Shown here: in pieces, positions 3,462 through 40,804 of the stretch
Layout: every line of letters starts with the position of its first letter
How positions within the stretch are numbered: position 1 is the first letter of the stretch
NCBI GenBank assembly: GCA_015680685.1
Contig: MNCI01003226.1
Span: 1 to 64,000 of the forward strand
Length of the DNA: 64,000 nucleotides
DNA from: Gnetum montanum
Lineage: Eukaryota > Plantae > Gnetophyta
Direction of reading: 5' to 3'
Translations under genes and position numbers: made by a program
Notes under the pieces: generated by a model
Told to the model about the DNA's origin: nothing
Databases searched by the model: none
What the model saw: only the letters and a program-made list of their open reading frames with translations

Positions 3462-3559
3462 AAATGTAAGATGATTTAAAACCATATAATAAGAAAATTA
3501 GTTAAGTAGAGGATGACATCTTAGTAATAAGGGTTCAATTAATTATTTAAAAATATTCA

Positions 3560-4249: not shown

Positions 4250-5179
4250 TGATGAGTCATCGTTGGTTGGTTGCGTTGACAAAGCCTCATCAACGTAGTC
4301 AATGGCATTGATGAGGCCTCATTTATGAGGCCCCATCAACACATTTCGACCTACATTAATGATACCTTGTCGACACGGTGTTTGTTCATCGCCTATAAAT
4401 ACGTGCCTATGCATCGCATTTATGGGAAGTCTAGATTTTAGTAGTAGCGAAGCTCTTGCATTTTTTCCATTCAAAAGTTAGAATTTCTTCCCTGAGTTCC
4501 CACAGCAGGAGTCATTGATTATACAGATCTTTATTCTAGCATTATTGTACCTGAGCATGATAGTGTGTGCGGCAATAAAGATGAGCTTTCTGATGAACCT
4601 TGCAGCACTTTAGATAGATTAGCTCTTTTATTTATGCATTCAATGTTTTCAATTATTTGTTAATTATTCTCAATTATTTTGCAATTATTTTCCAACAATT
4701 GAGTTAATGAGATTATTAAGATAGATAGATTAAATACATGAGTATGGTTGCTTTGAGCATAACATGTATTCACATAATCCCAACAGCATTATCACTTGGT
4801 ACACCTAGTAGCATAGCATTTGGTCATCCACCAGTGGATACATGGGTTCAGAACATGTACGAAAAGTGGGAACATATGCTTATGTTAGGATTAGTTAATT
4901 AGTAATTTAGATTAGTTAATTAAAATCCTTTTTATCTACATTTCAAGCATCCACAATATAAAATACAAAATGATAAAAATCAGATTCCTTGGCTATACTA
5001 AACCATACCAATGAATGTCACAATTGTAATTGTAAGGACAACAATTGACTTTAAGGTTAGATTCACTTCCTAAAGGGCTAGTGCACTAGAAGCAATAAAG
5101 CCCACAGAATTCGACCAAGTTGCATGTGAACACTTCATGATTTGTATGGTTGGACGTAGGGATACCTCGCTACTCATCA
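4250..5179 (+). repeat. E1 5' LTR
   Basis: Direct repeat of 17751-18680, TG...CA ends, followed by the PBS. Confidence 0.95.
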
Positions 5180-5180
5180 T

Positions 5181-5198
5181 TGGCACCACTGCCGGGGA
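5181..5198 (+). promoter_or_regulatory. E1 primer binding site (tRNA-Asp type)
   Basis: TGGCACCACTGCCGGGGA, a decayed form of the Athila PBS TGGCGCCGTTGCCGGGGA, 1 nt after the LTR. Confidence 0.9.
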
Positions 5199-6057
5199 CT
5201 TTGCTTGTGGAACGTGCGCTATTTAGGTCTAAGTGAATATCACTAATATCATTGTACAAACCTAAGGTCACATCATTCCCACCATACATAAATTATAAAA
5301 GCACACTAACAATTTCATTTTGCTTTGCAAAATATCTTCTTCTTCTCATAAGCATGACGATACTAAACCACTGGTCCCATAGGAATGCAAGGTAGTATAT
5401 ACTCATCTAGATGAGTTTGTACCAAATTTCACCTTCATCCTACATTAGGATGAATAGATGCCATGGCATGATATGGAAGGCAATGTCATTTTGCCCCCTA
5501 ATAGATATGTACCAGCAATGCTAATTAAAATATTTCAGATGTTGGGCATAGTAGATCTTCACGAAGAGTACGTTGTCGACAGATATGACACTTGGAACTA
5601 TCATCCCACTGAAACACAATGTAGGTGAGACAAACATCAAGAGAGACTCCATGAAGCCACAAAGGGGAAACATTACACTAACCCCTTGTTCCTACTAGAT
5701 CAAGAGGATATTAAGGGTCCTCCCTTGGAAGGTTCTCAACATGAAGAATCTCCACCCCCTACTAACAATGGTGAGGATGTGAACTTGACCCTACAATCAA
5801 CTGTTCATAAACCAAGTTTAAGGAATAGGGATAGCCAACGTAGGGACTTAGGCAAACATCATAATAACAAAGGATCTAATGATGGAGATTGTAAAAAGTG
5901 TGAGAGTGGTAGTAGACACCATGGTGGCGGTGGTAGTCCATCTTCCTCTTCATCCTCTTCATCTGATTTTGAACATTCCTCTTCATCTAATGGTTCTCAT
6001 AGAAGTCATCATCAAAACAACCTTGATGAAGGTGATCAACAAAATAATAATGGTTGT

Positions 6058-7102
6058 TAATGAGACGCGACATGCACTGGGCCGCGATATCGCGTCTTCT
6101 CCTGCGATATCGCGTATACAATATCGCGTCCCGTAGCCATATCTATAAATAAGAGGCGGCACTCCCTTCATTTCCCAATCCTGGCTAGAAGTAGCGAAGC
6201 TCTGGCAGATTGATCACTCCAGAGTTAGAATTTTTTCCATGTGCCCGCAGTAGGAGTCCTAGAGTGAACGACTCTTTATTCGAGCAGCTTGTAACCTGAA
6301 CCCAAGTTGTGTACGGCAATAAAGACGAACTTGATTGGATAAACCTTACAGAACGTGGCTTTATTTATTGCTTTCATTTACTGTTTCCTAGTGCGTTCAA
6401 GTACGACTTGATTACGAGCATCTACGAACGTGTACGGCTAGTCAAGGAATCGGTTGCTTGACGCAATGCATGAGTATGACTCAATTACGAGCATTGGCTG
6501 CTTGGTAACCCAGTAGCATATTCCAGGATTCTGCGCTTGGTAATCCCAGTAGTAGTCTGATGTGTATGGCTAGTTGAGGAATCGGCTGCTCATTGCTAGG
6601 CTAGAACGTGTGATAAGTACGACTTAGTTACGAGCACCTACGGGTGTGTACGGCTGGCTAAGGAATCGGCTGCTTCTCACACATAGGCTAAATAGGTGCC
6701 TCAGTACGACCACTTCGAGCACTTGCGTTACGTGTGGCGATCCCAGTAACGATTAGCGTTTGGTAAGCCACAGTTGCATAGTTCAGGGTGTGTCCGGTAA
6801 GTGGGAACGGATGCTGACGCTAGTTAATTTAGACTTAGGACAGTAGTTAGAGTTAGCTTAGTTTCTCAACCCTTTCCCCTGATAGCATAGAAGATAAACC
6901 AAAAAATACCCAAAAAATCATATACCTCAGACTTGCTTAACCATACACCGTGACACTTACAAGCAAGCCTGGGAAGACAATGAACGATTAACCCCAAGTG
7001 TTTCTTGTGGCGTTAAGGCATTTAGTCTGTGGAGTTCGACTGGATCGCGCGTGCACGCTCGTATTCGTATGGTTGAGTGTAGGGGTACCTCGCCACTCAT
7101 TA
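6058..7102 (+). mobile_element. solo LTR of a related Athila family inserted in E1 gag
   Basis: Termini TAATGAG...CTCATTA, near-TSD GTTGT/ATTGT. Carries LTR motifs (CTATAAATA, AATAAAGACGAAC, GTATGGTTG...GGGGTACCTCG). Flanks join into sequence collinear with E2 gag. Confidence 0.9.
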
Positions 7103-8132
7103 ATTGTGAAGGCCACCAAAGCCAAAGGAGTGGCTGAAACCATCATCGGTGTCATCAACACAATGATGATGATGAACCTTTATTGGCAACTCGAAGTATT
7201 CTTAACATTGTGGAGGCAATAAGAATTCCAACTAGGCATATAAAGGATAGTTGAATCAAGCATCTATATATGAACAATATCATAATATTTGAGGGGGATA
7301 TAACTCTGATCCGTAGATACATCTGCAAGATTTTCAAAATGCTTGTGCCTTACAAAACATTGAGAATGAGTGGCAGAAACTCAAGCTTTTTTCAAGGACA
7401 CTCATTAAGAAAGCTAAAATTCTGTACTAGTCCTTAGAACCAAAATATATCCAAAGATGGAGTACCATGTTAGAATTGTTCAATGACAAATATTAGACAT
7501 ACTCTAGAGTGTCTAATCTGAGAAGGTAATCCAAGGCTAGAAACAAGGAACACAAGAACCCTTGGATGCTACCATGGGCTGATACTATTCACTCTTACAT
7601 AGATGCCCTAGCCATGGTTACTCTCAGAGGGAATAACTTCGCCACATCATAGATGGGCTCAAAGTAGAAACAAGAAGAACCTTTGGGGTGTATGCCCAAG
7701 GGAAGTTTTCTGAAATGAGAGCTCATTAGATCCAAAGGCTAATTAAGCAAGTAGCAAAAGAAGCAGTAAGCTATGAAAAAGGGAGAATGCTAAAGAATAT
7801 AATAGGGATCAATCCATCAAAAAATGAGAGGTTTGATTTTGTGATGAGGAGGAGTCACCACTTGATGAAGTGGTGAATAGAAAGACCTTGCCTATCCAAA
7901 AATCTATTTCTGATATTTCAGCCAAGGTTGTCAAGTTATGGAAATCTTTGGATAAAAATTTTCAAACTTCTTTCAAGATTACTGAAGAATCCAAAGAGCA
8001 AAATAGTGATTATAATCATAGATGGTGAGAACAAGCTAAACATGCCTACCAAAGAGGTAAGGGCAAAGCTGCTGCAGTAGAGGAAGTTGTGGATTCTAAC
8101 TCTAATGATGAAACCAAATGTGAAATTTGTCA

Positions 8133-8248: not shown

Positions 8249-11200
8249 CAACAAGCTTACTACCCAAGTGGAACTCCTCCACAACCTTATGAATAGTACC
8301 AACAATGGTACCAACCACAATTGTGGGAAATTCCATCGCCAAGGCAGCAGTACCCTTATAGGCAACTAGATCCATATGGGTATTATGTTCAGCAACCTGT
8401 CTCCCCTAAAAGTTTAGCAAGTCATGCATCATTCCAACATCACTATTACCCTCTAGAATACCACTAAACACATTCACCATCTACTCGAGGGGAAAACCCA
8501 TATCCATATCCTTATCATCCTCCACATCCCTCTACACCTACACCTCCACCTTCAACTCAATTACCTCCTACTCCATCCATGTAGGGTGAAATTTCCCCAC
8601 AACCATAGCAATGAAATGCTTCAAAGGCTATACACTCATAACCAATTTTTCAACCAAGTGTTTTGGATAATCAATCAAGGAAACAACCTTTCTTTTGGCC
8701 CAGTAGTCCTCTCTAGCCATCACAACCTACTCTAGCTGATCGCCCTACATCTCCAATACCCTCCTCCTCTATATGCAATAGCTTTGAGCACCCTTCAAAC
8801 CAAGTGCCACCTAGGATCCGCACTGTAATGCTAACTCATGTTATTTCTAACTAGATCAAGGCTGGACACATTCCTACAAAAAGATCTAATCTAGGAAGTT
8901 TGCTCATCTTTTTATAGATTGCTAGATAAGAGCCATGCAAGGCTCTTGACTCTCATTCTAGAGTGAACCTCATCTCCCATGATATGTACAAAGCCTAGAA
9001 CCTACCACCTCTTAAGAAGAGCAACATCCATTTAGAATTTTTAGATCAGTCAATTACAGTCCCTTTGGGCTTAGTAGAGGACATTGTGCACAATCTGTGG
9101 GTGGTCTTATCTTGTTAATTTTCTAATAATCAAGGTGGACAATTGCAAAAGTGACTTCCCCATCATAATGGAAAGGGCTTGTTTAAGCACAGTTAATGCA
9201 CAAATGGATATAAGTGACCTATTTCTCTAGAAATATCTAAGGAGAATGAGTTAGGAAAATTTGAGAAGAAGTGTATTCCATGTATTGCGTATAGAAATAA
9301 TGGGTGCAATTGTGTGCAAAAAATTTGGTCAATCAAAAGCACATACATTAAGGCTCGCAATTAGTGTGTGCAAGAAATTAATATTCAATGGTGTCTATAT
9401 GCAACAGTCAAAAAGCAGGAGGGCACTCAATGGCTGATAACTAATTTAGATAGCATCACAATATGCATGGAGCCAACTAAGAGTTTAACTTGTGCATATG
9501 TTGAAGACATGGACAAAATTAAATAAGTCCATTCCCAACTCTCTAATGAAGATGATGATAATTGTTCGGGAGAGTTGGAGATCCTTGATCACTTCAAGCA
9601 AAAGCCCTTAGGACTAAAAAATTTACTAGTTGGAATGGAATATGCGTTTTTAAAGAATGGTAAATCAGTCATCATTAATGCCAAACTTGCTCCTAAACAA
9701 AAGGAAAAGTTGTTGAAAGTGATGAATAAATGGTTAACAACCTTTGCTTGATCATATCTAGAACTAACAGGAATCAATCAGAGGATATGCCAGCACTACA
9801 TCTACACCGACCTAGCCATGAAGCCTAGAAGGTAGCCACAGAGGTAGCTAAACCCCAAATTGAAGCAAATTGTTGAGGAAATAGAGCAACTCCTCAAGGT
9901 AGGGTTTATCTATCTAATCGTAGATAGTGAGTGAGTTAGCCCACTTGTAATTGTACTAAAGAAGTGTGGTAAATGATGAGTTTGCATTGAATTTAGATTG
10001 TTAAATATGGCAACATTTAAGGATCACTTTCCTTTTCCATTTGTCAATCAAGTATTAGACACCATATCTAGGCATTATTATTATAGTTTCTTGGACAGTT
10101 ATAGTGGCTATAACCAAATCCAAATCATGCCAGAAGACCAAGCAAAGACAACATTCACGAGTCCCTAGGGGACTTTTGCATACTGTAAGATGTCATTTGG
10201 CCTATGCAATGCCCCTACAACATTTCAACGCTTGGTCCTTAGTATCTTTCAATAATAAATCAATAGTGGTATTAAAGTTTTCATGGATGACTTCTCCACC
10301 TATGGAGCTACATTTAAGCAAGCCTTGGATCGACTTGAGCAAGTACTAAAGAGATGTGTTGAGATAAACCTACAACTTAATTGCCAAAAGAGCCATCTCA
10401 TGGTCCAAGAAGGCATTATGCTAGGGCATTGAATTTCACAAAAAGGGATTGAGGTAGACCTAGAAAAGACAAGAGTCATCCAAGGAATAACACACCAACC
10501 AGAGACTGTTAAAAATGTTCAGTCATTCCTTGGACACACTGATTACTACCATCGCTTTATTAAGATTTTCTCTAAGATTGCAAAGCCATTGGTAGAGCTT
10601 ACAAAGAAAGATGCACCTTTCATTTGGACCAAGGAATGTGAAAACCCATTCCAATAATTAAAAGAGAAACTCGTAGAAACACCAATCCTATGAGCACCTA
10701 ATTGGTCCAAACTATTCCATATCATGACAGATGCATCTAACTATGCTTTGGAAGTAGTACTCATGCAAATGGATGATAAGAAATGTCTATATTATATCCA
10801 CTACAAAAGTTGAAGCATTGTGGGAGCATAGTTAAATTATAGCACCATGAAGAAAGAATTAATGGTAGTGGTGCATGCACTAGAAAAGTTTAGACATTAT
10901 GTGCTAGCTTACAAAATATTTGTACATATGGACCATAGTGCAATTCGCTTCCTTATGAATAAGATGACAGTGAGCCCTTGTGTTATATGGTGGCTTGTGA
11001 TCTTGCAGGAATTCGATCTTACTATGGTAGATTGAAAAGGGACTAAGAATGTGATCGTTGTTTATCTTTCTCTCTTAAAATGGAATAACAAAGAGGAGGA
11101 GAGCCTGCTCTCTGATCAATTTCCAAATTAACTCCTCTTTACTAGAGCAATAAATGAAGAAACACCTAAAAAAGCAATATGATATAATGGCATCCTCACA

Positions 11201-12498
11201 TGTCTTCTCACTCAAGAGATGCCACAAGACTTGAATTTTAGGAAAAAGCAACAATTTCTTCATCGAGTCAAATACTTCATAGAAATTAACGGACACCTTT
11301 ACAAGGTGTGTGCCAATGGCCTAGTTCATTGGTGTGTCCCTAATGAAGATCAATTATGCATTCTCTAGGATGCCCATAAAGGACCTTGTGGAGGCCACTA
11401 TGCAAGGAGATGCACGACCATAAAAATCCTAATGGCAAGGTGCTATTCGCCCACAATCTTTAGGGATGCCCACTAGTTTGTCAAGTCTTGTGAATGTTGT
11501 CAACATGATAGGGGCATGACCACTCGTATGGAAGGTCCTCAATAATGGATTTAACCATTAGAACCTTTTAACATATGGGGTGTTGACTTCATGGATCCCA
11601 TCACACCCATGTCTAATAGGAAAGCGTATATTATAGTAGTTGTTGACTATTGCACAAAATGGTTTGAAGTAGTAGCCATTACAGATTACATATCATCCAC
11701 TGCCTCTAGATTTATACAAAAACATATCATAAATAGGTTTGGCATGCCATGTTCACTAATTTCTGATAATGGAACTCATTTCATAGGTGCCACATTTAGA
11801 AAATTAATGCAACGCTTGGAGGTAGAATATAAATTAATAACACCTTACCATCCCCAAGCCAACAATCAAGCAGAGGCAACCAATTGAGAGATTACAAAAA
11901 TATTAACATGAACCATTAGCAAATATAGGAAGGATTGGAGTACAAAACTTAATGGTGCCCTCTGGGCTTACTAATCAACCTGGAAACTTCCTATTGGATA
12001 TTCTCCATATGATTTAGTGTATGAGAAACTTTCAACACTCCCAATTCAATCTAATCTCTGTACACTCTCAATGACCTGTGAATTAAACCTTGACCTAAGT
12101 TTAGCACATAAGGAGAGATTGATCAATCTGAATGTGCTAGACAAAAATTGCTTAGTGGCCCTATCTTTGAATAAGATGAACAAGGCATTCAGCAAGCATT
12201 ATCATGACCGTAGAATTAGGAAAGTAAGGTTTCAAGCACGAGATAAGATCCTATACTGGAACCCCATACATGTACCTCAAAAGGAAAAATTTCAAACATT
12301 GTGGGAGGGACCTTATATAAGTGATCAAACCTTTCCCTCTAGGGCCATGATAATTTACAAACATGATAGCCCAAATAAAAAGTAGTTGGTCAATATCCAA
12401 CAAATTAAACCTTTACTAGAACTAAGATTGGCTAGTGTAAATACTCCCTCACCTGGGACACCCACGTTCTATTTTTTAGATCTCCTCCTTCCAACTTA

Positions 12499-12512: not shown

Positions 12513-14120
12513 GGCCATCCATGCTAACCATTACCATGGCCTCTCAGTTTTTCTACCCTTTTTGTTTTTCACATTTTTGATTTTACAAATTTTTGGTTTT
12601 CATATTTTTCTAATTTTATACCATTTTTAGTACATTTAAATTTTCTTGATTATTTTACACTTTTTTTATATATTTTTTACTTTATTTTGTTTCTTATGTT
12701 TCTTTTGATTAAGTGTGATATTTTCTCAATTTTGCTAATAAATCAACTTTATTGTTGCAGGACATAATGTTGCTGTTGTTGTTTACTAATGATGGTTTAT
12801 GCTTAATGTGTGATTGTCAATGCTTGATTTCTATTTTTGAATTCTAATGTCTATTGACTTTGACATGGTTTATTTTTCATGGGACAAGTAGTGAGTCTAC
12901 GTCATCCACCCATCCAAAGAACTCTATGGTTTTTCTTGTTTTGGGAATTTGAGGTCCCTTTTTCATTAAAGAAACTTTTAATCAATCAATGACCTTGGTA
13001 GTTCTAGAATTAGGAAGGATCCAAAGGTTTGTAAAGGGTGTGACTTCAAGGGGACTCAATACTCTTTGTACTCTACTTCTTACTTGAGTGCTTGAGTGTT
13101 TTTCGCGGACTTCTTACCATTCCATACCACCAATGATAGGAAGACAAATAATATCGTTGCATGGTGTGGTTCCCATCATTAAAAAAACGATGGGAATTCA
13201 AAGCACACCCCTTCAACATGAATAAGTCCTCACATGGTGTGGTTTCCATTTTCAGAAAAAAAAAATAAAACAAAACAATGGGAATTCAAAGCGCATTCCT
13301 TAGACAAATAAAATGGCTACAAGCACTGGTTATGGGACTCGAAAGACAGACACCTATGCCTGAAGGTCCCCTCTAACTAAGGCCCCCTCTCTCTCACTTC
13401 CTACTTTTCTCTCCTCTTTGTGGAACAATGGTTGTCTTATAGGGACACTTATTTCTTGAGTGGATGGATTTGTCTAAGAGTGATGATGCGAAGTCACTAA
13501 AAGTGGATGGTTTTGGTCTAGACTAAGGATGGAACTTCTCGGGTCATTTTAATCACACTTCCATAAGGGACTTCTTATGATCTTAATTTGGAACTCCATT
13601 TCACCTTCTCTATCATCCATCCATGCTGCCATAACTCACCTCACTGTTGGGTTCTATGTTATGCTCTATGTCTTAGTGTGACGTATTGGGATTCTTGAGT
13701 GGATTCTTTTGGGTTGGTCCTCAACTTGTCATGATCATTAAATTGACTATGGGGCCCATAGACTCCTTAATTGAGGTTATGCAAGGGCAAAAAGAGCATG
13801 AGCCTACTATGGGAAGGACCCACTTGCATGGCTTTTGGCTTGATTAGTTAAGGTTCCTTACCTTTGACATTGTTACAATCTTATATTTTGTATTTTCCAT
13901 TGTGTAAACTGCTTAGCACTCCTTAATATTTCATTGCATTCATCCAATAAATCAATTTTTCTCCATTTTTTCAAATTTATGAACTCTAACACCCTCTTCT
14001 CATGATTTCATACTATTCTTGGTTTTCTAAGATTTCATTTGATCCCAATTTCATAAAAAAATTCCTTGTATTTTGAAAGTTTGACCAAAGTCAATGAAAG
14101 TCAACAGTGGTTAACAGCTA

Positions 14121-14210
14121 TGTCGTCGAGGCCTTGTTGATGCAACTAACCCCATCGACGAGGCCCCATCATCAAGGCCTCATCAATGCAATACAAAAAT
14201 ACTATATATA
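14121..14210 (+). promoter_or_regulatory. putative E1 internal promoter: palindrome array plus TATA
   Basis: Five CGTCGACG-derived units spaced 14/18/14/14 bp, as in the E1 LTR, then CTATATATA. The equivalent is present in E2. Confidence 0.7.
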
Positions 14211-14665
14211 CCACCAAAAATTTTGGAATTTTTTGTCATTTGCTCATAACACATAGGGAATTTTTGTAGTTTTTTAGAGCCCAAAACCTTCCAAAGTCCA
14301 TAACTTTCAAGTCATTTGTCCAAATCACTCTATTTTTTGATCTTGCACCTATTGGAGGTAAGATCTTTATCGTGGGGGGCCACAAACCCTAAGGTTTTCA
14401 ATGCAATTTTTGAAAATGTTTCTAACTCCCCTAAGGGTTAGTAACTTTAATCATACATAAACATCAACTTTTTCCAAGTTAACCCTTCCAACAACCTCTA
14501 GGATGATTTATCAATGAGAAGGCATAAATAGAAATAATAATTAAGTTAATTAAATCAACCATAATCACAACTTAGCCAAGTGTAACTACCCTCAAAAGTT
14601 AAGATATCCCAATTTTTTTAAGGTTACACAATGATTGCTAATCCATGGTTCTATTGTGATTATAA

Positions 14666-17501
14666 ATGGCACCCAAACAAAAGCACTTGCAGGAAGGAGA
14701 ACCCTCACAACCATGGGAGAAACGACCAAGAGCTAGAAGGGGCCAACAAGAATAAGGCCAAGAACAACAAGAGGTGACCCATGCAATGGGACCTCTTCAT
14801 GAGGAGCCCAAAGTGGAATCTGTTTGACAGATTCCAAAAGAAGAAGTGCCTACAAAGTAATCTCAACGAGGAGAAGCACCTAGACCTATGCCTAGGCTTG
14901 AGATCACTTGAACTCAAGCCTACCTAGACATCATCAAGTCCCAAGAGATCCAAAGATCAATTCTTCAAGAAATAAACTTTGGGCCATTTTTGGAAAAAGC
15001 TCCAAAGGATGTCAGAACATAATTGCAAACCTCTCCCATGTGGCCAATCATCACGACCAATGGGGAATGGCACATGAAAGAGTCTTATCTCTTCTAGAAT
15101 AGCCAAAGGCTAGGGTCCATTGTAAAAATCAAGGACGTTCAAGTGTCCTACTAGGTGGAGGCCATTGCACAAGCATTGGGGTTGCCTGACATTGGAACAC
15201 AGCTAGCAAAAATATCAACAAAAGGTGACCCTAAGGCAAAAAGGGAGTGGACCCAATGATGTTATGGGATGAACCATAAGGAGTATGGCATGCTCACACC
15301 GGTGAAGCAAATTTATTTCAAGATTGTGACCTATCACCTAAATCCAACAGTGAGGCCAAGTAAGGTAACTACCTTCTTCGCTTGTGCATGTGCCACTCTA
15401 AGCGGGAAATTTTCCATTAACCTTCCACAATTGATTTATTTGGAGATTGAGAAGTATTTCACAGAGAAAAAATGTGGAAGGAGGACCCTACCCTTTCCAT
15501 GCCTTATAAGAAAAATTTGTAAGAGGGTAGGTATTATTCACTATTCCAATGACACTCTCAAGCATACTCCTTTGGCCTCATGGGCAAAAATCATGAAAAA
15601 CAAAACGTCAACAACCATCCAAGAAGAGGAGATGTTACCACCACCACCCACTTAGGAGACAACATCGGAGGCCTGCATGATCCTTGGGCATCTACAAAAT
15701 ATCTGAGAGTAGCTCTTGAGTGAACAAGAGCAGTAGCTAGAAACAAGTTGGGTGGATCCATCTATGTATTGGCTAGCAATGAGTCACCTTAATAAGGTGG
15801 CTTGAACAATTAGCCAGATGGAGAGGGATGGTTCCATTTTCTTTGCCCAAAGAATGTAGCTACCTTCAAGGTCGATCCCAATGCTTAGGAGGTGATGGTG
15901 TCATTAGCAACACATCATCTATTCCCAGAAATCTCTAGGAATGCTTCCACTTTCTCAGTGAAGTTAGAGGAAGGTGAAGAGGTAGTTGTCTTGGTGATGC
16001 AGCACCAAGGGTAAGAAACAATGGTAGAAGTGGTAGTTGACTATGTTGCTAAAGCATTGAATGCACCAGCAACATTTGTACCAAATGTATCTGCACTCCA
16101 AGATGTGCAAACATCTACAGGCACGATCAGCGAGAAATTGAACATAGCCCAACTTGGACAACTACTGGAACAACTGGTAGGAACCAGGCAATCAATTTTG
16201 GATATCTTTTATTTTTTGGAGAACATCACTGCAACCCAATCAGAGCTACTAAATGCAAGGGGAAAATGCATCATTTTGGAGGGACAACTAGAAATGACCC
16301 AAGAGCAAAATCAACACTTGATCATGGAGGTTGCTGAACTTCATGCCCAACTTGCAGTGTAAACAATCCTCAACCTAACAACGATAAGAGATGAAGCTAT
16401 CAAATAGCGTCAGGAATGATTTCAAAATGCTGAGGAGGAAGTAGTAATAGCCATCTTCAAACAGTCCATGGCAAAAGCTGAAATGCATTAAATTAAAAAG
16501 AACTTGAATTATATGTGCCAAGAAAATGAAGCATTAACTGCATAAAATCATCACCTGTGAAATGTTGATGCTTAAAGAGATCAAATGCAAGAATTTATTC
16601 ATCAACAATAGGAGCAGCTTGCCAGGGTAAACACTGAATTGAGAAAATTGGTTGCGGAGAACCAAAATTTATCAATGGAGGATGTACACACCTTATGACA
16701 AAAGTATACCATCGAAATCGTTGCCTGGAAAATTGAAGTTCTCAAGTTTGAGAGAGTAAAAAATCACTACAAGGACCAAGTTGGCTTGCAAAAAGAAATT
16801 AATGAAAAAGAAATCTAGATGGCAAAGGCTAAAGTAAATGAAGCCCTCTAGCAACTCCAGAACAGAAGAGAAATGTGGTAGCCCATCCTTGATGGGATTG
16901 ATGCCTACAACAAAGTAGAGATCTGCTTGAAGGAGTTACATATTGAAGAGATGATAGAGTACATGGAATTGGCCAATCTTCGTTATGCAAACCTGGCAAT
17001 GCTAATAGCCAAACAATCGGGGTCAAAATTGGAGAAGCAAGTGCCTAGCTCGTATCTACTATATGAGGCTAAGTTCAAACACTACAAGGACACCAAGCAA
17101 AAGCTTGAGACTGCTAATGTTGAACTTGACATCCTCAAAGGGCGATTCACAGATCAACGATCCATCATCGAGGACCTAGCCAAATGGATAAATGACTACC
17201 AGGAGCTAAAGAAAACAATGTGGGCATTCAACATTGAACGCAAATAGTTCATTGCCTAGTTTGTCAATGTCAAGGAGTTGTTTCCAACGATCCCGTTCCA
17301 ACCCACATTGGGAAAGCTATGTGGACGGTGCATGATCTTAGGAGTAAGGAGGAGAAAATGAAAGCACTACTGGATGCTTTTTGTCTCCCACCTAAAGTTG
17401 TAGTAGCAGCAAGACAACCATAGCCTCAACCACCCCCAATGTGTGGAGTCGGTGAAGGTTCCTTAGAACCTTAGGAACCACCACTGCATGGGACCGTTTG
17501 A
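14666..17501 (+). pseudogene. E1 accessory ('env-like') ORF: Athila/plant-transposon-protein-like domain plus long coiled coil, disrupted
   Basis: Starts MAPKQK. Contains AIAQALGLP...YHLNPTVRPSKV...INLPQLIYLEI...LPFPCLIRKICKRVG, then a Q/E/L-rich heptad region (YMELANLRYANLAML). Collinear with E2. Confidence 0.8.
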
Positions 17502-17750
17502 TCTTCTCCAACAAGCTTCACATCATCAAAGAACGTGTTGTCTAATTTTTGATGAGTTGTGTCATGGTGTTCAATTTTGTGTCTTGAACACCATCATTTT
17601 TGTAATGTGTTGATTCATACATGCGGGCACTCCATTTTTTGTCATGTCAGTCAAGTTTGTTTTGTTGAAAGAAAAGTCAATCAATAATCCCATACCTTTC
17701 CAATTTTGTAAAACAACTTGAGGATGAGTTTTTATTTAGTCATGGGGGTA

Positions 17751-18680
17751 TGATGAGTCGTCGTCGGTTGGCTGTGTTGACGAGGCCTCATCAACGTAGT
17801 TGACTGCATCGACGAGGCCTCATCTACGAGGCCCCATCGATGCATTTCGACCTACATTGACGATGTCTCGTCAACACGGTGTCTGTTTGTCGCTTATAAA
17901 TATAAGCCTACCCGTCACATTTATGGGGAGTCCAGATTTTAGTAGTAGCTTTTCCATTTGAAAGTTAGAATTTTTTCCTTGAGTGCCCATAGTAGGAGTC
18001 ATTGAATGCACGGATCTTTATTTGAGCATTGTTGTACCTAGGCACGATAGTGTGTGTGGCAATAAAGATGAGCTTTCTGATAAACCTTGTAGCACTTTGG
18101 ATAGATTTGCTCTTTTATTTATGCATTCAATGTTTTCAATTATTTGTTAATTATTCTTAATTATTTTGCAATTATTTTCCAGCAATTGAGTTAATGAGAT
18201 TATTAAGCTAGATAGATTAAATACAGAAGTGTGACCGCTTCGAGCATAACACATATTCACTTGGTAATCCCAGCAGCGTTATCACTTGGTATGCCCAGTA
18301 GCGTAGCATTTGGTTGCCCAGCAGTAGATACATGGGTTTAGGACATGTACGGAAAGTGAGAACAGATGCTTATGTTAGGATTAGTTAAATGATTAGTTAA
18401 TTAGTCATTTAAATTAGTTAATTAAACTCCTTTTTATCTACATTTCAAGCACCCACAATATAAAATACAAAATGATAAAAATCAGACGCCTCAGTTACAC
18501 TTAACCATACCGACGAACATCACAAGTGTAATTGGGAGGACAACGATTACCTTTAAGGTTAGATTCACTTCCTCAAGGGCTAGTGCACTAGAAACAATAA
18601 AGTTCGCAAAATTTGATCAAGTCGTGTGTGAACGCTTTGTGATTTGTATGGTTGTGCGTGGGGTACCTCATCGCTCATCA
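17751..18680 (+). repeat. E1 3' LTR
   Basis: Follows PPT CATGGGGGTA; repeat of the 5' LTR; followed by TSD ATGAT. Confidence 0.95.
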
Positions 18681-20942
18681 ATGATGAATATTTCAATGTC
18701 ATACATTAGAGCACATTAGACATAGATGGGATATTATAGTTGCAAATTTGGTTAATTTGTTTTAAATATTATTAAGAACACTTGGTAATTTTCTCAATGA
18801 TGTTTTTAAAACTTATAGCATGTATATTTCTACTATCCAATAAATCTAGAGGATCTACGAACATAATAAAATTTTAGCTCTAGTTTTATTAATTCTTCCA
18901 TTATGGATAGAATTACAAACTAATAATTTCTAGTGTTTCCCACCCTTACAAGCCTAAATTATCCACTTGGTTGCACATGCCCTTTCTTGATGACACAAGA
19001 GAGAAATAGCTAAGCCCAAGGAATATAGGTCTGTGACAAATATCCCAAGCAATTCTTCTAAAATTTTTAATGCTAATTTTTTCCATGATGTACCCTTAAC
19101 ATGATAATTAATAAGACCTTGCACTAGTATTTTCACAAAGAATGTTTTTATTCTTGTATTTCTTGTGTGTTAAAAAAAATGTTACATCTAGATTTACACG
19201 TTTAAATTATGGCCATGACTTGCCATGTTTAAAACATCATAAGATACATCCAAATTTACATGTTTAAATTTTGGCCATGACCTTTCCTTTTTAGAACATC
19301 TTAAGAAAGCTTATTCAACTTTTTAGGTTGATCATGTATTATTTGCCTAATTTTCTGTTTATGACTTGTTTTTATTATTAGATTGTTTCAAGAATTCCTT
19401 TGGCATAATTGCTCAAAGATACTTAAGGCTTTCATTCATCCACTAATTGTCTCAAGATCTTTAAATATAAGGTTTCCGATAATACAAGAATTCCTACCTT
19501 TTGGGCTTAAGTGATGGCTTATTTATCTGTTTAAGTTTACTTCAAATAAAAAATCATTACCTATAGGCTGAATGCTTCTCCTGCCAAAGCTAGATCCTAA
19601 AAGGATCTGTGAACAAGTAAAAGCGTAACCTATTTCCCAAGCTAAAGCCAACGTGTTATGACTTTATAAATAACCACTAAAATTAGTCTTTGCCAAATTT
19701 CATTCTCAGTAACTGTTTCATACATTCAAAGAGCTCGCGTATCAACGAAATCTAAATGCAAATTTTTACAACCACAGCAAATCGTACACGTTTAACTCTT
19801 TTGTCATAATCCTGCACTATTAAAAATATTAATCATTACAACTTTTCGTTGCAGCGACTTTATTTGCGGATGATTTCGTTTGTTTTTGATTAGACAATAA
19901 CACTTTCCGTTTCACGAGTATCTTTACCGCATAAATGATGTTAAATGATGATGGAATCCAATGTGAATTTCAACAACCACGTCATAACAAGGTTGAGACA
20001 GTATTTTATTATTGCCATCGAATTATTCCACCAACAGTAACAGCAGCAGCAGCATGGAAGTTTTGAGAGAACCCTGGGCTATCAGAAACGAATCTGCAAA
20101 AGTCACGTAGGACCGATAATACGATGAGGAGACTGTTTCTCTGTCTCATAGCCAAGGCGAGTGCTCCATAGCTGTCCGACATTTCGACATACAGTACTGC
20201 AAACGGGAATTTAATTTTCTTGTATATCGATCAGTGGCTGTTAATGGCATCATGGAAAATTTGAATGGACATTCCACCAACATGACGCAGTCCTACTTTT
20301 TTTTAATCTCCTGCTCTGCAGCAGAAGCCACCAACGTCCAGGACCATCTGTTTCCGACATGAACGTTACGGAACAGGCGAGAAGGAAAATACAGAACACG
20401 GAATTGCATTTAATGGCTGCAAAAATTTGCAGCCATCCAAAATACAAGGGTCGCTCTGTGGATTCCCGTTTCGCAACGTACAAATTGCGTGACAATCGAA
20501 GATTCCTTGTCAGGGGTCAAAAATGGCTTCATTCCCTCACAGTGCACAGAGGCGACTAAGCCAGGGACCACATTACCTCAAATTCAAAGCTCATGGCCGA
20601 GATTTCCACTTTTTTTCTTACTCAGAAATTCGTGGTAACAAAGCCAAAGCTGAAGCTCGCGAAATGGGTGCAGAAGCTGCAAAGTTAGCATCATTATCAT
20701 CATCTATGGACTTGACTTTGTTTTCAGCGATCGTGACAAAATGTTGGTGTAGTGTGTTCTATAAGAGGGATTTCGCTTTTCGGCTCTGGTTCTGGTCTGG
20801 ATCCCGTTGATTTTCTTGCAATAAAGATTTTTTTTTTACTGGTATTAGTTCGTTTACGGTAGCAAAGCCGCAAAGGAAGCTGAAATTTTAATGGACTGCT
20901 AGCACAAGCTCGTTGCAAGCTAGGCGTAGCACAGAAATAGCG

Positions 20943-23900
20943 ATGGAGCTTCTGCAGATGGTGTTTTGTGTTTGTTTGCTTCTTTTTCTCGCAGCGGCAG
21001 AGCCTCGCAGCAAGGTAAATCGGTACATAAAATTTTTCCTCGAAAAATTTCTATGCTCCACTCTGTTGCTTGAATATGAAACTATTACGTCCTAGACCCT
21101 CTGATCTATCGGACCGGCCATGTATTTGGAAAACATCGTTAAGAAAGCTTATTGAAAACTGAAGCTTCTAGTGTACTGGCCTGTTCTTGTGCAGTCTATT
21201 ACTTTCTGTCTGTGATTAAATCTTGGCGCGTTTTTCAGGTTCATATTGTCTACACAGAGCAAGTGCTGTATCAGAAGCTGAGTGACCATGATCATGTTCA
21301 TAGTGAGATGCTTGAAACAGTTCTCGGAAGGTATTTTTCTTGTAATTCTTCGAGTTTGTATTTTCGGGTTCTATTTAGAACAAATCATAGAAGAAATTTG
21401 CCAAATTTTTGATTGTCACAGCAAAACAGCAGCAGCCGAATCCTTATTGTACAGCTATAGACACAGTGTTTCAGGTTTTGCTGCTAAGCTCACCTGTCAA
21501 CAAGCCAGGCTCCTGGCAGGTAATTTAAGTTATAAAAACCTCTGGTCTGCAAATACAGGGAACCTGGTGTCTCATGGTATTTTTAAGGGTCTTGAAAATA
21601 ATTGTCAACATTAGTTACCACTTGTCTTGGCCAATATTTTTTCTTAAAAAATTTGTCTGCCAATGTTGCAAACAAAGTTGAGATCCCAGCTAACTGTTCT
21701 GCACTGTTCATGATGAAATGCAGGTATGGAAGGAGTGACATATGTCACGCCTAACAAGATTCTAAGTTTGCAAACCACACGCAGCTGGGACTTCCTGAAT
21801 ATGCATTCAACATTTACTAATTTGATCCGCAATGGCGCTGAAGAAGATGCTATATTGGGCGTCATTGACACAGGTTAGCTCGAAGAGTTACTGACCGTGT
21901 CTTTTGCAGTTGAGACGTTTTTGATGCTGAACGTTACAATGCTTCATGGTGCAGGAATATGGCCTGAATCTGAGAGTTTTAGTGACAGGCACATGGGGCC
22001 AATTCCAACCCGTTGGAAAGGAATTTGCCAAAACGGAGAGGCCTTTAATTCGTCACATTGCAACAGGTTGGTTCTGAATCTTCTGATATACTCTTTTGAT
22101 GGGGTTTGAAAATTCATGCTTTACCTCTAATGCACTGAATTCTTCTACTTAGCGATAGCATTTCTTCTCTGCCTTAATAGTGAGGTTGCTACTTCCATTT
22201 CCTACCCACCTTAATTTAGAGTGTAGTTCCTGGAACATCCTAAATTATTGACTATAGACATTACTGTAATTCACTGTGTACAAGAATTCTGTGCATATAC
22301 ATTGTTTTCTTCCATTTGTAGATAATGACTTGTTCATATATCATATTGTTGCATTAGGAAAATAATAGGTGCTAGATGGTATGTTCAAGCATATGAAGCT
22401 GAATTTGGGCCATTGAATAGAAGTGAGGTTCAAGAATTTTTATCTCCTCGGGATGCTTTGGGTCATGGAACTCACACAGCTTCAACAGCAGCTGGTCTGT
22501 TTGTACATAATGTGAGCTTCATGGGGCTTGCTACTGGGACAGCCAGAGGGGGTGCCCCTAAAGCCCGCATTGCAGTGTATAAAGCTTGTTGGGTTGACGG
22601 TGACTGCAGCTCTGCTGATATAATTGCTGCATTTGATGATGCTATTCACGATGGGGTGGATGTGATATCAGTATCTTTAGGATCACCACCTCCTCTGAGT
22701 GCATACTTTGATGATCCTGTAGCTGTTGGTTCATTTCATGCCATCAAGAAAGGAATCGCAGTTGTTTCTTCCGGTGGAAATTCTGGGCCTTTTGCACAAA
22801 CTATTATAAATACAGCTCCTTGGTTAATAACTGTGGCGGCAAGTACAATTGATCGCAGCTTCCCCACAGCCATCATTCTTGGCAACAACCTTACCTTAAA
22901 GGTAAGGAAATGATATCGCAAAATCTAAAGTTATTTAATCCAACTTTTCTGTGAATTCTGCACCTGTAAAACTGGCAGATGTTTTGTCTTGAAATGAATA
23001 AACTATGGGTTGATTTAATTTATTATCATTTTCGTATGTTTTATTCACAGGGTCAGTCTTTCAACATAAGAAATGATGCTCGCTTCCATGACATTGTTTA
23101 TGGAGAAGATATTGCCAATGCTGACACAAGTGCTGCTAAAGCAAGGTTTTTAAACTCTTTCTTTAATCCTCCTTCCTAACCATTATCTATTTTCCTATTG
23201 ATTTATTTCTAACACTATTATTACATGTACAGGACTTGTGATGAAGATTCTTTGAATGCAACATTAGCAAAAGGAAAGTATGTGTTATGCTTTCAATCTA
23301 AAGGGCAGAGACCAAGCAGTGTTGCTGCAACAACCGTATACAATGCTAAAGGGATTGGAGTCATCTTTGCTCAAATTTCTACAAAGACAATTGCTTCTTT
23401 GCCTTTCATACCTTGTGTACAAGTGGATTATGAAGTCGGTACCAAAATTCTCTTATATTTAAGATCAGCAAGGTGAGGAGGACGAAGGTGTTGAAGTGAA
23501 CAAGGACAATGCTTTGTTTCAAATTGATGGTTTTTTAAGGAAATGATCGAAACGGTTTGCCTTTCAGGTATCCGTTAGTGAAATTAACTTCTGCAGAAAC
23601 GGTTTTAGGAAAGGCATTTGCTCCAGAGGTTGCATACTTTTCATCTAGAGGACCTAGCTCTTTAACTCCATCGGTTTTAAAGGTAACTTTATCAAAATTT
23701 ATCTTGGTGAATGACCTATTACCTCTAAACATTATTTATAGTATTTCTTCCATTCCATCATGTTTTAATTTTACAAAGTTACTTTAAAAAATTATGGATC
23801 TTTTTTTGAAACATGCAGAAATGTAGTTTTGTATGAGAGGGTAAACATTAGCTACCTGATTTATGCGGCTTTGTTGATTCATGTAAATTTTGTCTTATGT

Positions 23901-26583: not shown

Positions 26584-27504
26584 CAAATATTCATCGCGAA
26601 AAGAAATTGTTTTTCCAATGATTCTTCGAATGGCTTGCATTCTTAGTAGTGCTGGCATTTACACCTGTTGCTTTTCCAGTGTAAACTATGAATTCTAATT
26701 AAGAGAGAGAGAGAACATGATGAAAGGATTCTAAGAGTAAAATCCTGTAAGGTAATCAACGGGAAGAAATCTGCGTAAGGTAATTTGAATATAACTTGAT
26801 AGCAATTCTTGTGTAGCAACTCCTAAATTAAGTCGCCTATTGAATAGTTCAGTCAGCAAAAGGTGCTGTGTTTTCGGCCGTTAAAAGAAACTCAATCTTT
26901 TCTTTTCTTTTTTCTTTGTACAAGCGTGCAAATTTTGGAAAATGAATTTGTTTTGCAAATGAAATTGAATTGGTATTGAGATGTAAAATGTTGAAATTAG
27001 TTATTACGTCGACTAAATTGAATAAAAAAATAAGCTAATTTGGTTTGGATTATAAATGCAATTGACATTAATGGAAAGCCAAATTGAATTGAAGTTGAGC
27101 AAAATTGCTATTAAGAAAACAAAGTTAGCTGATCAAAGGAGTGTGTCTAAAAATAAAGTTTATGCTACCAAATTTCTTTCTATATTCAGATTTTCTTTGT
27201 AAGGTTCTTTAAGATAAATTGTGAGAAAGTGAAACGGGTATTGAGAGAATCATGATGAGAAATTGTTGAGAGAATTAAGGGTTATTTGCATGCATTTGGA
27301 AGAACATTTGTGAGAGATTATGGTTGCAAGAAAGAAAGAAAGAGGAGAGAATTTTGTTGTTTGGCATCCTCAACATAAAGACTTTGTTACTCCTCTTGTT
27401 TTAGTTAATTTGCATAAACTATAATTTTCCTAAGCTATTATTTTCACCTTCCTTTGCTTCTCTAGCCTTATTATTTTACAAGTTTTGATTATTAAAATCA
27501 CTAA

Positions 27505-28420
27505 TGATGAGCGGCTAGGTACCCTTACGCTCAACCATGCGAATCACGGGCGTTCACATGCGACTCGGTCAAATTTCGTCGACTATAAGCAAAACCTTTG
27601 CATATCACGGGCGTTCACTTTGCATACACCAGATCTTAACTAGCAAAACCTTGTGTTAGAAGGGTCGTTGTCTTCCCAACCTCACTTGTGATGTTCTGAT
27701 TGCGATGGTTAAGTGAGATTGAGGCAAATAATTTTTATGGATTTTTCACTTTATCTTCTTGCGTCTAATTCTTGAAATGAAATGTAAGGAATGGGATATT
27801 ACGTAATCTATAATTATCCTAATCTATCTATTAACTCTTCCTAGCATAAGTATCTGATCCCATCTTTTGTGCACATCCTGAGCATCCCCTAACCACTATT
27901 GGGTTACCAGACATTAAGCATCACTAGGTTGCCAAGTGTCGAGTTTACATTCGAGATGGTTGTACTTATGGTTTTTACAAACTATAAAAGAGATGATGAT
28001 TTAAGTAATAACAATGAAAACTTAAGGAATTATTAAAGCATAGAAATATTAAACTATTAAATGCATCAAATGACTAAGTCCAATTGCTGCAAGGAATGCT
28101 TGAAAAGCTTGTCTTTATTGCTAGTCACACCAATGGGCTTAGGTACATTAGTGCTTGAATAAAGAGCCAAACACCTTTCTCACACCTACTACGGGCACTT
28201 GGAAAATATTCTAACTCTCGCGGAAACAAACTACAAGAGCTTCGCTACAACTACCAAAAAGGTACCTAAGTGTGGTGGAAGCACACTTATTTATAGGCTG
28301 GAACAGGCGCTGCATAAACGAGGCCACGAAGACGCATGGATAGATGCGTCGACGCGACCGCGTATACGAGGCCCCGTATACGCAGCCTAGTCGATGCATC
28401 AACTGTTTAGTGCTTCATCA
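27505..28420 (-). repeat. E2 3' LTR
   Basis: Repeat of 39929-40804; adjacent to PPT (28421-28430). Confidence 0.95.
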
Positions 28421-31508: not shown

Positions 31509-31949
31509 GTGCAATCAAACATAACCATTAATTAAATTGTGCACAAGTTGCTCAAAATGGCCCTCATACACTTTCTCATTTTGACTGGGTTATGGTACTA
31601 ACACATGCATCCCATTAAATTGCCCAAAGTATTAGTTGATGGGTTAGAACCAAAAAACAATAAAGCATGAATTGGAATTTAAACTATTTTTTTTGCTTCT
31701 TCCCTTAAGAGCTGTAAAGTCTATAGTAATTGTAAGTTAATTGATTAATATTTGTTCTTATAAACCTCCCGCCCCCCCCCCCCACACGACTGAGAGCATA
31801 CCTCTAATTGCAAAAGAGGGGAAGGATACGTGGATTCAGATGCTTGATAGAAAACATAGGTTCTTGGGAAGACGAAGTTAGGCAAAAAAAATGAAAAATC
31901 TCCCCCCAATTTGTTTGCAAAATGATTAAAAACACATGGCACAATGGGG

Positions 31950-32025
31950 TATATATAGAGTTTTGTTGTTGTGTCGATGGGGCCGTGTATACGCAGGGGG
32001 CTACGTATATGGGGCTACGTCGACA
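31950..32025 (-). promoter_or_regulatory. putative E2 internal promoter: palindrome array plus TATA
   Basis: Minus strand: TGTCGACG, CATATACG, CGTATACA, CATCGACA at 14/18/14 spacing, then CTATATATA. Confidence 0.7.
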
Positions 32026-39909: not shown

Positions 39910-39927
39910 TCCTCGGCAACGGCGCCA
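39910..39927 (-). promoter_or_regulatory. E2 primer binding site (tRNA-Asp type)
   Basis: TGGCGCCGTTGCCGAGGA, 1 nt inside the 5' LTR boundary. Confidence 0.92.
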
Positions 39928-39928
39928 A

Positions 39929-40804
39929 TGATGAGCGGCTAGGTACCTCTATGCCCAACCATGTGAATCACGGACATTCACACGCGACTTGGTTAAATTC
40001 CATAGACTGTAAGCACTTTGCATACACCAGATCCTAACCAGCAAAACCTTGTTTTAGAACGGTCGTTGTCTTCCCAACCTCACTTGTGATGTTCTGATTG
40101 CGATGGGTAAGTGAGATTGAGGTAAATGATTTTTATGGCTTTTTCACTTTATCTTCTAGCGTCTAATTCTTGAAATGAAATGTAAGGAATGGGATATTAC
40201 GTAATCTATATATCCTAATCTATCTATTAACTCTTCCTAGCATAAGTATTCAATCCCATCTCCCATGCACATCCTCAGCATCCCCTAACCACTACTAGGT
40301 TACCACATGTTAAGTGTCATTAGGTTGCCAAGTGTTGGGTTTACATTCGAGATGGTCATACTTATGGTTTTTACAAACTATAAAAGAGCGATGATGATTA
40401 AAGTAATAACAATGAAAACTTAAGGAATTATTAAAGCATAGAAATATTAAACTATTAAATGCATCAAATGACTAAGTCCAATTGCTGCAAGGAATGCTTG
40501 AAAAGCTATTCTTTATTGCCGATCACACCAATGGGCTCAGGTACATTAGTGCTTGAATAAAGAGCCGGACACCTTTCTCACACCTACTGCAGGCACTTGG
40601 AAAATATTCTAACTCTTGCAGAAACAAACTGCAAGAGCTTCAGTAAAACTACCAAAAAGGTACCTAAGCGTGGCGGAAGCACACTTATTCATAGGCTAGA
40701 ACAGGCATTGCGTAAATGAGGCCACATAGACGCATGGATAGATGCGTCGACAGGGCCCCGTATACGTGGCGTAGTCGATGCATCGACTGTTTAGCGCTTC
40801 ATCA
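39929..40804 (-). repeat. E2 5' LTR
   Basis: TGATGAAG...GCTCATCA on the minus strand. Confidence 0.95.

What the first reader, a model, noticed from the sequence alone, without database searches (positions are those of the whole stretch)
14121..17501. Candidate two-promoter autoregulatory circuit: a copy of the LTR palindrome array plus TATA precedes an accessory nuclear-type ORF
Seen: the E1 LTR U3 array (17775-17876) has CGTCGACG-derived 8-mers starting 14/18/14/14/20/14 bp apart. About 3.6 kb away, the internal array at 14121-14188 repeats the 14/18/14/14 spacing and shares the exact 13-mer CATCGACGAGGCC, although the flanks are not LTR-like. It is followed by CTATATATA and then the accessory ORF. 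E2 has the same layout with its own variant: GTATAC cores occur in both its LTR (~28360-28382) and its internal array (~31985-32010). In both elements the last internal core starts 22 bp before TATATATA. Established: foamy viruses use an internal promoter to make Tas, which activates both that promoter and the LTR; VANDAL DNA transposons encode VANC proteins that act on family-specific motif arrays. Inference: the accessory ORF product may bind the family-specific dyads and activate or de-silence both its own promoter and the LTR. I do not know of this being shown for Athila-type elements, but could not check the literature.
Basis: partly seen in the sequence, partly recalled or inferred. Interest (0 to 1): 0.85.

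Follow-up and report, generated by a model that had tools for sequence, protein, structure and literature searches.

The report
Retrotransposon's second promoter copies its LTR
Two dead plant jumping genes each carry a second copy of the palindrome row from their terminal repeat, placed in front of a TATA box and an extra gene; this is likely an internal promoter, and the extra gene's protein possibly switches on both promoters (untested), but a similar layout is already described for another group of plant jumping genes.

Summary
Observation confirmed. E1 and E2 are decayed Athila-type Ty3/gypsy elements. In each, the best internal match to its own LTR U3 palindrome array (1st of 227 and of 207 windows; 0 of 300 shuffles reach it) lies just upstream of an internal TATA box, the last dyad 22 bp before it. 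The E1 copy is a 74-bp homologue, spacers included. Downstream lie a conserved splice donor, an acceptor that most sibling contigs keep, and a ~950-codon ORF (PF20167/Athila ORF1 kin, dN/dS 0.09-0.19 between E1 and E2). An internal promoter is likely (~0.85), but no start site was seen in RNA. Much is in print: Sireviruses have family-specific palindromes in the LTR and before env (PMC2829016), and Athila6A has an internal ENV promoter (PMC4977677). My searches found neither the shared array in a Gypsy element nor a plant LTR-element protein binding its own promoters. That binding is inferred (~0.4): fold predictions failed, and motif co-variation rests on two elements and is weak in E2. The scan earlier noted a similar layout in an animal LTR element (e1-9358293), and VANC21-like folds for related extra ORFs (unchecked). 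New variant of a known kind.

The parts
4250..5182 (+). E1 5' LTR; dyads 4274-4375 spaced 14/18/14/14/20/14, TATA at 4394; target-site duplication ATGAT
   Evidence: 85.8% identical to the 3' LTR, K2P 0.16
5183..5200 (+). E1 primer-binding site, decayed; the E2 site next to 39927 is of the type I recall as Athila tRNA-Asp
   Evidence: sequence; the tRNA match is recalled, not tested
9989..11854 (+). E1 pol remnants in RT-RNaseH-integrase order, many stops; no second RNase H and no chromodomain hit
   Evidence: Pfam scan of three frames with X at stops
14118..14191 (+). E1 internal copy of the U3 palindrome array (five CGT-NN-ACG-type dyads, 14/18/14/14)
14203..14210 (+). internal TATA box, 22 bp after the start of the last dyad
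14358..14665 (+). predicted leader intron: the only AG|GTRWG donor between TATA and ATG; it holds all 6 upstream ATGs; acceptor decayed in this copy
   Evidence: sibling contigs (laid on E2); splicing itself not observed
14666..17500 (+). E1 accessory ORF, about 950 codons, broken: basic N-terminus, PF20167 domain (15119-15535), long helical C-terminal half (coiled-coil-like by eye, no predictor run); 3' end approximate
   Evidence: (E 1e-12, 48.7 bits, cut-off 45)
17751..18683 (+). E1 3' LTR, preceded by a purine tract at about 17740-17750; U3 array 17775-17876 (itself a ~105-bp inverted repeat); TATA at 17895, 26 bp after the start of the last dyad
27503..28420 (-). E2 3' LTR; array 28313-28396, TATA starting at 28295, last dyad 25 bp upstream; target-site duplication ACTAA
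28700..31508 (-). E2 accessory ORF, broken; 55-58% amino-acid identity to E1; PF20167 (E 8e-11, 42.5 bits, just under the cut-off of 45); 3' end approximate
31509..31801 (-). E2 predicted leader intron; donor 156 bp after TATA (155 in E1); most sibling contigs read a canonical acceptor directly before the ATG
31950..31957 (-). E2 internal TATA box
31972..32025 (-). E2 internal array: four dyads spaced 14/18/14 (the scaffold of E1), with the 2nd and 3rd cores of the AT-centred type found in the E2 LTR
39927..40804 (-). E2 5' LTR; array one 14-bp unit shorter than in the 3' LTR
   Evidence: 91.2% identical to the 3' LTR

Best explanation
Two decayed Athila-type Ty3/gypsy retrotransposons each carry a second copy of their LTR palindrome array 22 bp before an internal TATA box; this likely was an internal promoter making a leader-spliced mRNA for the PF20167 accessory protein, which possibly bound the dyads at both promoters to keep its own family active (untested). 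Shown: the duplicated array, its fixed distance to TATA, the conserved donor, the acceptor in siblings, and purifying selection on the ORF. Inferred at about 0.85: transcription from about 30 bp after the internal TATA, and splicing of a 300-bp leader intron onto the ATG. Inferred at about 0.4: the protein, oligomerised through its long helical half, binds the phased CGT-NN-ACG dyads and activates or de-silences first its own promoter and then the LTR, as VANC does for VANDAL and Tas for foamy viruses. Both copies in this window are dead, so this describes the family's active past or living relatives.
For: Array identity and rank. Geometry: of 22 TATA-like words, the 9 with a dyad 20-27 bp upstream are 7 LTR promoters and the 2 internal sites. 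Donor at the same distance in elements only about 50% alike in this region. Canonical acceptor in 15,201 of 20,511 (X1) and 15,045 of 19,105 (X7) contig depth. dN/dS 0.09, 0.16 and 0.19 for three ORF blocks, against 0.08-0.09 for pol. The E2 internal array keeps E1's 14/18/14 scaffold but has its own LTR's AT-centred cores, a two-transversion change that CpG decay does not give. Related LTRs in the same window keep the 14/20 phasing and 25-bp distance with a different half-site, CGA-TA-TCG, so the motif turns over between families in one host. Two RNA reads from a sibling run from the internal flank into sequence that fits the LTR array better than this copy's internal array (table 5c). In print: an Athila6A internal ENV promoter and intron (PMC4977677); the Athila domain, like VANC, is predicted to form coiled-coil pentamers (PMC13547354); a sunflower Athila PF20167 protein is predicted nuclear (PMC11728184).
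Against: No start site or splice joint was seen in RNA. On E1, 4 runs gave 586-1667 reads each, nearly all diverged relatives fitting only in part, with depth 0-0.5 over 14008-14469 in the two oligo-dT runs. On E2's promoter, 2 runs gave 1 and 16 reads. Only 2-26% of each run was read, so this is weak either way. Cognate preference is weak for E2 (50 and 36 cognate against 43 and 28 non-cognate), and E1 and E2 share the same half-sites, so one factor could read both. Co-variation rests on two elements, and gene conversion could also produce it. In Sireviruses, families without the extra gene (Opie-2, PREM-2, Osr8, Tnd-1) keep the LTR palindromes (PMC2829016), which fits a host factor or needs supply in trans. 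No DNA-binding domain was found by Pfam in the ORF.
Confidence: 0.4

Rival explanations
1. Internal promoter, but driven by host transcription factors. The element copied its U3 enhancer so that gag-pol and the accessory gene are switched on together; the accessory protein does something else (particle, chromatin or host-protein interaction).
For: All the promoter evidence above fits equally. Bousios 2010 proposed host nuclear factors and found that families without ENV keep the LTR motifs (PMC2829016). E1 and E2 share CGT..ACG half-sites. The dyads contain GTCGAC and ACGT words that I recall as DREB/CBF and bZIP cores (recalled, not tested). Accessory proteins, Athila included, are predicted to be rich in host-protein contacts (PMC13547354).
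Against: Half-sites differ between related LTR families in one window while the phasing and TATA distance stay fixed, which is harder to explain with a fixed set of host factors. Bousios 2010 found no common known binding site.
Confidence: 0.35
2. The arrays act as hairpins or small-RNA templates, or are homogenised by template switching and conversion without needing a shared binding factor; the ORF is reached by splicing from the LTR transcript.
For: All four arrays fold far better than shuffles (z -4.1 to -8.8; 0 of 200 shuffles). Maize Sirevirus palindromes are siRNA hot spots and form hairpins (PMC4728375). E1's 10-bp spacer is homologous too, pointing to physical copying. Spliced env-like mRNA is reported for Bagy2 (PMC7264820).
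Against: Any palindrome array folds well. Pairing of the internal array with the cognate U3 array gains no energy over separate hairpins. Neither hairpins nor conversion explain the fixed 22-bp and 25-26-bp distance to a TATA box.
Confidence: 0.17
3. The internal array is a relic of an old LTR or a nested solo-LTR fragment with no function.
For: The window is full of nested and solo LTRs of this superfamily.
Against: Similarity to the LTR is limited to 74 bp. The array sits at the same place in two diverged elements and matches each element's own LTR best, and it is followed by a TATA and donor conserved against about 50% background identity.
Confidence: 0.05

Closest known systems
Sirevirus (Ty1/copia SIRE) repeated motifs, Bousios et al. 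2010 (PMC2829016) and 2016 (PMC4728375)
   Same: Family-specific CpG-rich palindromes clustered in U3 just before a conserved TATA, and again upstream of the 3' extra ORF; an internal promoter was proposed.
   Different: Here the elements are Ty3/gypsy. The core is CGT-NN-ACG rather than CGG..CCG, in a strict 14/18/20-bp phase, and an internal TATA sits at a fixed distance (the 2010 paper could not conclusively identify an internal promoter). The passages I saw propose host factors, not the extra ORF, as the binder.
Arabidopsis Athila6A with its internal ENV-ORF promoter (PMC4977677) and Athila ORF1 / Transposase_32 proteins (PF03078, PF20167; sunflower Athila 14, PMC11728184)
   Same: Sense 3' extra ORF of the PF20167 kind with its own promoter and an intron in the element; no additional RNase H.
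   Different: The passages read mention no LTR-derived palindrome array at the internal promoter. The ORF here is about twice as long (about 950 against 487 residues), with a long helical tail and no clear transmembrane segment.
VANDAL/VANC anti-silencing system (PMC5735166)
   Same: A proposed element-encoded protein and family-specific short motifs in arrays in non-coding DNA; both VANC and the Athila domain are predicted coiled-coil oligomers (PMC13547354).
   Different: VANC belongs to a DNA transposon, its motifs are not phased dyads before a TATA, and its binding and demethylation are shown. Here neither binding nor a shared fold could be shown.
Foamy virus Tas with LTR and internal promoter (search listing and abstract starts)
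   Same: Two promoters, with an accessory gene under the internal one.
   Different: Tas binding and activation are shown. There is no evidence of sequence relationship, and these are plant retrotransposons.
Maize Grande gene23 and Retand TRP28 ORFs (PMC7264820, PMC11963269)
   Same: Extra ORF between pol and the 3' LTR; own promoter and nuclear product (Grande); DNA binding and a regulatory role predicted (Retand).
   Different: Those ORFs are antisense, in the Tat/Retand lineage, and carry PF04195; no LTR-shared dyad array appears in the parts read.

Membership tests
Ty3/gypsy LTR retrotransposon | Two LTRs with TG..CA ends, 5-bp target-site duplication, PBS and purine tract | tested here: met
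Ty3/gypsy LTR retrotransposon | Domain order RT-RNaseH-integrase | tested here: met
   both elements
Athila clade (REXdb non-chromovirus OTA) | No additional archaeal-type RNase H (which marks Tat) and no chromodomain | tested here: met
   No such Pfam hit at E 0.01 in six frames read with X at stops; definition in PMC6317226. Decay could hide a weak hit.
Athila clade (REXdb non-chromovirus OTA) | Large non-coding region and extra ORF of the Athila ORF1 kind (absent in Phygy/Selgy) | tested here: met
   PF20167 above cut-off in E1; database relative P0005 is near PF20167 and PF03078 clusters at 0.90
Athila clade (REXdb non-chromovirus OTA) | RT-RH-INT tree placing it within Athila | not tested
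   No reference set was obtained; locus searches returned nothing
Athila clade (REXdb non-chromovirus OTA) | PBS complementary to tRNA-Asp | tested here: inconclusive
   The PBS was read; its tRNA assignment is recalled
Sirevirus | Ty1/copia order (integrase before RT) | tested here: not met
Sirevirus | Palindromic motifs in U3 before TATA and upstream of the extra ORF | tested here: met
   works like, but is not a member
VANC-type anti-silencing system | Family-specific short motifs arrayed in non-coding regions of the element | tested here: met
   specificity between E1 and E2 is weak
VANC-type anti-silencing system | Protein with the VANC/MAIN-type fold | tested here: inconclusive
   Models too poor to compare
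VANC-type anti-silencing system | Sequence-specific binding and loss of methylation | not testable with these tools
   Needs bench work
Foamy-type two-promoter circuit | Internal transcription start site | tested here: inconclusive
   Too few close RNA reads
Foamy-type two-promoter circuit | Accessory protein activates both promoters | not testable with these tools
   Needs reporter assays

The most novel reading that the evidence does not exclude
The so-called env-like protein of Athila elements (PF20167/PF03078) is a sequence-specific, oligomeric self-activator or anti-silencing factor. Made from an internal promoter that carries a copy of the U3 dyad array, it binds phased family-specific palindromes at both promoters and co-evolves with them. 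Sireviruses would use the same logic by convergence, and plant LTR retrotransposons would have their own Tas/VANC.
Probability: 0.35. Interest if true: 0.85.

Novelty: new variant of a known kind. Interest (0 to 1): 0.52.

Why it matters
The function of the third gene of Athila and SIRE elements has been open for over twenty years. A promoter array duplicated between the LTR and the front of that gene, in both a Copia and a Gypsy lineage, names a concrete DNA target and turns the question into a binding and reporter test. If the protein is the binder, abundant plant LTR retrotransposons carry family-specific positive feedback or anti-silencing switches, which would bear on how families burst and evade methylation. 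If host factors bind, it is still a case of convergent two-promoter co-regulation.

Tried and rejected
No whole genome is held, so family-wide co-variation could not be run. Locus searches for relatives found none: accessory domain in viral and metagenome contigs (332 and 594 pattern matches, none confirmed), integrase (597 and 41), a PBS pattern in viral contigs (0). One search used the wrong frame and says nothing. Protein searches gave only two short unnamed relatives, P0005 and P0006. AlphaFold models were unusable (mean pLDDT 38.8 and 39.0). Fold searches on them gave no match with E below 0.001 and a best Z of 5.1, and VANC21 was not among the listed rows; this is no evidence against a shared fold. 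PDB sequence searches gave nothing significant. An atlas search with P0005, PF20167 and PF03078 left out, gave no usable named hit, so my recalled likeness of the domain to the plant mobile domain and VANC stays untested. No RNA holder was listed for the E1 stretch. RNA lays showed no start cluster and no joint; two overlapping reads ending near 31925 may be one molecule and were not counted. Long-range RNA pairing of the two arrays gained no energy for cognate pairs. A membrane envelope reading was not favoured: best 19-residue hydropathy means were 0.95-1.2, with one of 1.65 across stops in E2. The VANC21 structure paper and Sasaki 2022 are not held. No supplements were read; they may show array features of Athila6A or Sireviruses that I did not see.

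Full report
What is there. The window is plant DNA; no whole genome is held for it. It contains two full-length, decayed LTR retrotransposons. E1 (+ strand) has LTRs at 4250-5182 and 17751-18683, 85.8% identical, with target-site duplication ATGAT. E2 (- strand) has LTRs at 39927-40804 and 27503-28420, 91.2% identical, with ACTAA. Both show RT, RNase H and integrase in Gypsy order, with no second RNase H and no chromodomain hit. With the 3' extra ORF this fits the Athila clade as defined in PMC6317226 (passages); I ran no tree against references.

The observation. Among 227 windows of 110 bp across E1's interior, the one at 14110 matches E1's U3 best (80; best non-overlapping window 27). Among 207 windows of E2, the array again ranks first (50 against 23). 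None of 300 shuffles reaches either score. The E1 internal array aligns without gaps to the LTR over 74 bp (53 identical, 16 transitions, 5 transversions), spacers included, so it is a physical homologue worn by methyl-C decay; the similarity ends there. The motif is best written CGT-NN-ACG in 14-bp phase, with 18- and 20-bp steps.

Promoter anatomy. Of 22 TATA-like words on both strands of the window, 9 have a dyad 20-27 bp upstream. Seven are LTR promoters (25-26 bp) and two are the internal sites (22 bp each). Between TATA and ATG each element has exactly one AG|GTRWG donor, 155 and 156 bp after TATA, in a region only about 50% alike between E1 and E2. Both window copies have a decayed acceptor, but most sibling contigs laid on E2 read a canonical acceptor directly before the start codon (15,201 of 20,511 depth in X1; 15,045 of 19,105 in X7). 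I had expected this from the E1/E2 alignment before laying the contigs. Sibling contig depth at 80% likeness or more is high around the acceptor and ATG, the donor and the leader, and low over the array. That fits fast turnover of the array, but CpG decay would give the same. The predicted intron removes all 6 upstream ATGs of E1 and 9 of 11 of E2.

RNA did not settle transcription. Four runs on E1 gave mostly partial, diverged reads with no start cluster and no joint. Two runs on E2's promoter gave 1 and 16 reads. Only 2-26% of each run was read.

The ORF. It starts at 14666 (E1) and 31508 (E2), spans about 950 codons, and is dead in both. It has a basic N-terminus, a PF20167 Transposase_32 domain (E 1e-12, above cut-off in E1; just under it in E2) and a long helical half with no Pfam hit, which looks coiled-coil-like by eye. 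dN/dS between E1 and E2 is 0.09-0.19 over three blocks (642 codons), against 0.08-0.09 for pol, so it was a selected gene (synonymous sites are near saturation, so values are rough). A database relative lies near PF20167 and ATHILA ORF-1 clusters. Two structure predictions failed, so DNA binding could not be judged.

Co-variation. The E1 internal array strongly prefers its own LTRs (80 and 52 against 29 and 32), while the E2 array does so weakly (50 and 36 against 43 and 28). One detail favours selection on cores: E2's internal array keeps the 14/18/14 scaffold of E1, unlike its own LTR, yet carries its LTR's AT-centred cores. Against a family-specific protein, E1 and E2 share half-sites. For it, two related LTRs in the window use CGA-TA-TCG in the same phase and at the same TATA distance, and RNA loose ends show more such families. 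No further full elements could be fetched.

What is known. Bousios 2010 (PMC2829016; passages and section 19) described family-specific palindromes in Sirevirus LTRs before TATA and upstream of ENV, present in the linker only when ENV is present. It supported an internal promoter without finding one, and suggested host factors. The 2016 follow-up (PMC4728375; passages) showed hairpins and siRNA hot spots there. Athila6A has an annotated ENV-ORF promoter and intron (PMC4977677; passages). Grande gene23 has its own promoter and a nuclear product (PMC7264820; parts 1-2 of 3). Retand TRP28 is predicted to bind DNA (PMC11963269; part 1 of 5 and passages). A sunflower Athila PF20167 protein is predicted nuclear (PMC11728184; passages). 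The Athila domain and VANC are both predicted coiled-coil pentamers, and VANC resembles MAIN (PMC13547354; passages and section 10). PMC12844716 (passages) speculates on VANC-like factors in LTR elements and calls the question open. VANC binding is shown in PMC5735166 (passages). Tas is known to me here from a search listing and abstract starts. PMC12859917 (passages) added nothing. Nine searches listed no paper showing an LTR-shared dyad array in an Athila element, or a plant LTR-element protein binding its own promoters; for the larger result sets I saw only the top rows, and the library lacks most subscription papers.

Earlier notes of this scan report a similar layout in an animal LTR element, and VANC21-like predicted folds for related extra ORFs in another plant genome. 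They are unchecked leads that agree with an idea I had noted before seeing them; my own fold test was inconclusive.

Verdict. The feature is real, and an internal promoter that reuses the U3 array is likely (about 0.85). Who binds the array is open: the element's own protein 0.4, host factors 0.35, structure or conversion 0.17, relic 0.05. The layout is a Gypsy counterpart of the Sirevirus arrangement with a sharper geometry, hence a new variant of a known kind. The autoregulatory reading would be important and is directly testable with intact natural Athila proteins. Interest 0.52.

Noticed in passing
window 6057-7103 (+): Solo LTR of a related family nested in E1 gag. Its U3 dyads are CGA-TA-TCG spaced 20/14, the last one 25 bp before TATA; R/U5 are similar to E1 and E2.
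   Followed up: partly
window 31-455 (+): 3' end and LTR start of another related element, with decayed CAATATCA dyads 14 bp apart and TATA at 150; cut by an N gap.
   Followed up: partly
window about 1717-3462 (+), with about 2088-2962 (-) nested: An older LTR interrupted by a minus-strand solo LTR. Both carry decayed 14-bp dyad arrays (the nested one at 2869-2938) and a TATA 25 bp after the last dyad.
   Followed up: partly
window 17771-17878: The whole E1 U3 array is one near-symmetric inverted repeat of about 105 bp (RNA fold -66.8 kcal/mol, z -8.8).
   Followed up: partly
window 12600-13870 and 32244-33520: About 1.3 kb of non-coding DNA between pol and the internal array is 61% conserved between E1 and E2 and holds a twice-repeated motif near 13154-13340 and 32751-32971; unexplained.
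   Followed up: no
window 17681-17757: Many RNA reads from other families share the 3' end and purine tract but continue into different U3 arrays, so this superfamily is large and transcribed at a low level.
   Followed up: no
window about 20950-26583 (+): Multi-exon host gene between E1 and E2 that reads like a subtilisin-like protease (recognised by eye; not scanned).
   Followed up: no
window about 45000-49000 (+) and about 60000-63000 (-): Exons that read like an MscS-like channel gene and a PPPDE/DeSI-like peptidase gene (recognised by eye in printed translations; names recalled, not scanned).
   Followed up: no
window 57365-57651: Two-copy 143-bp tandem repeat, 91% alike.
   Followed up: no
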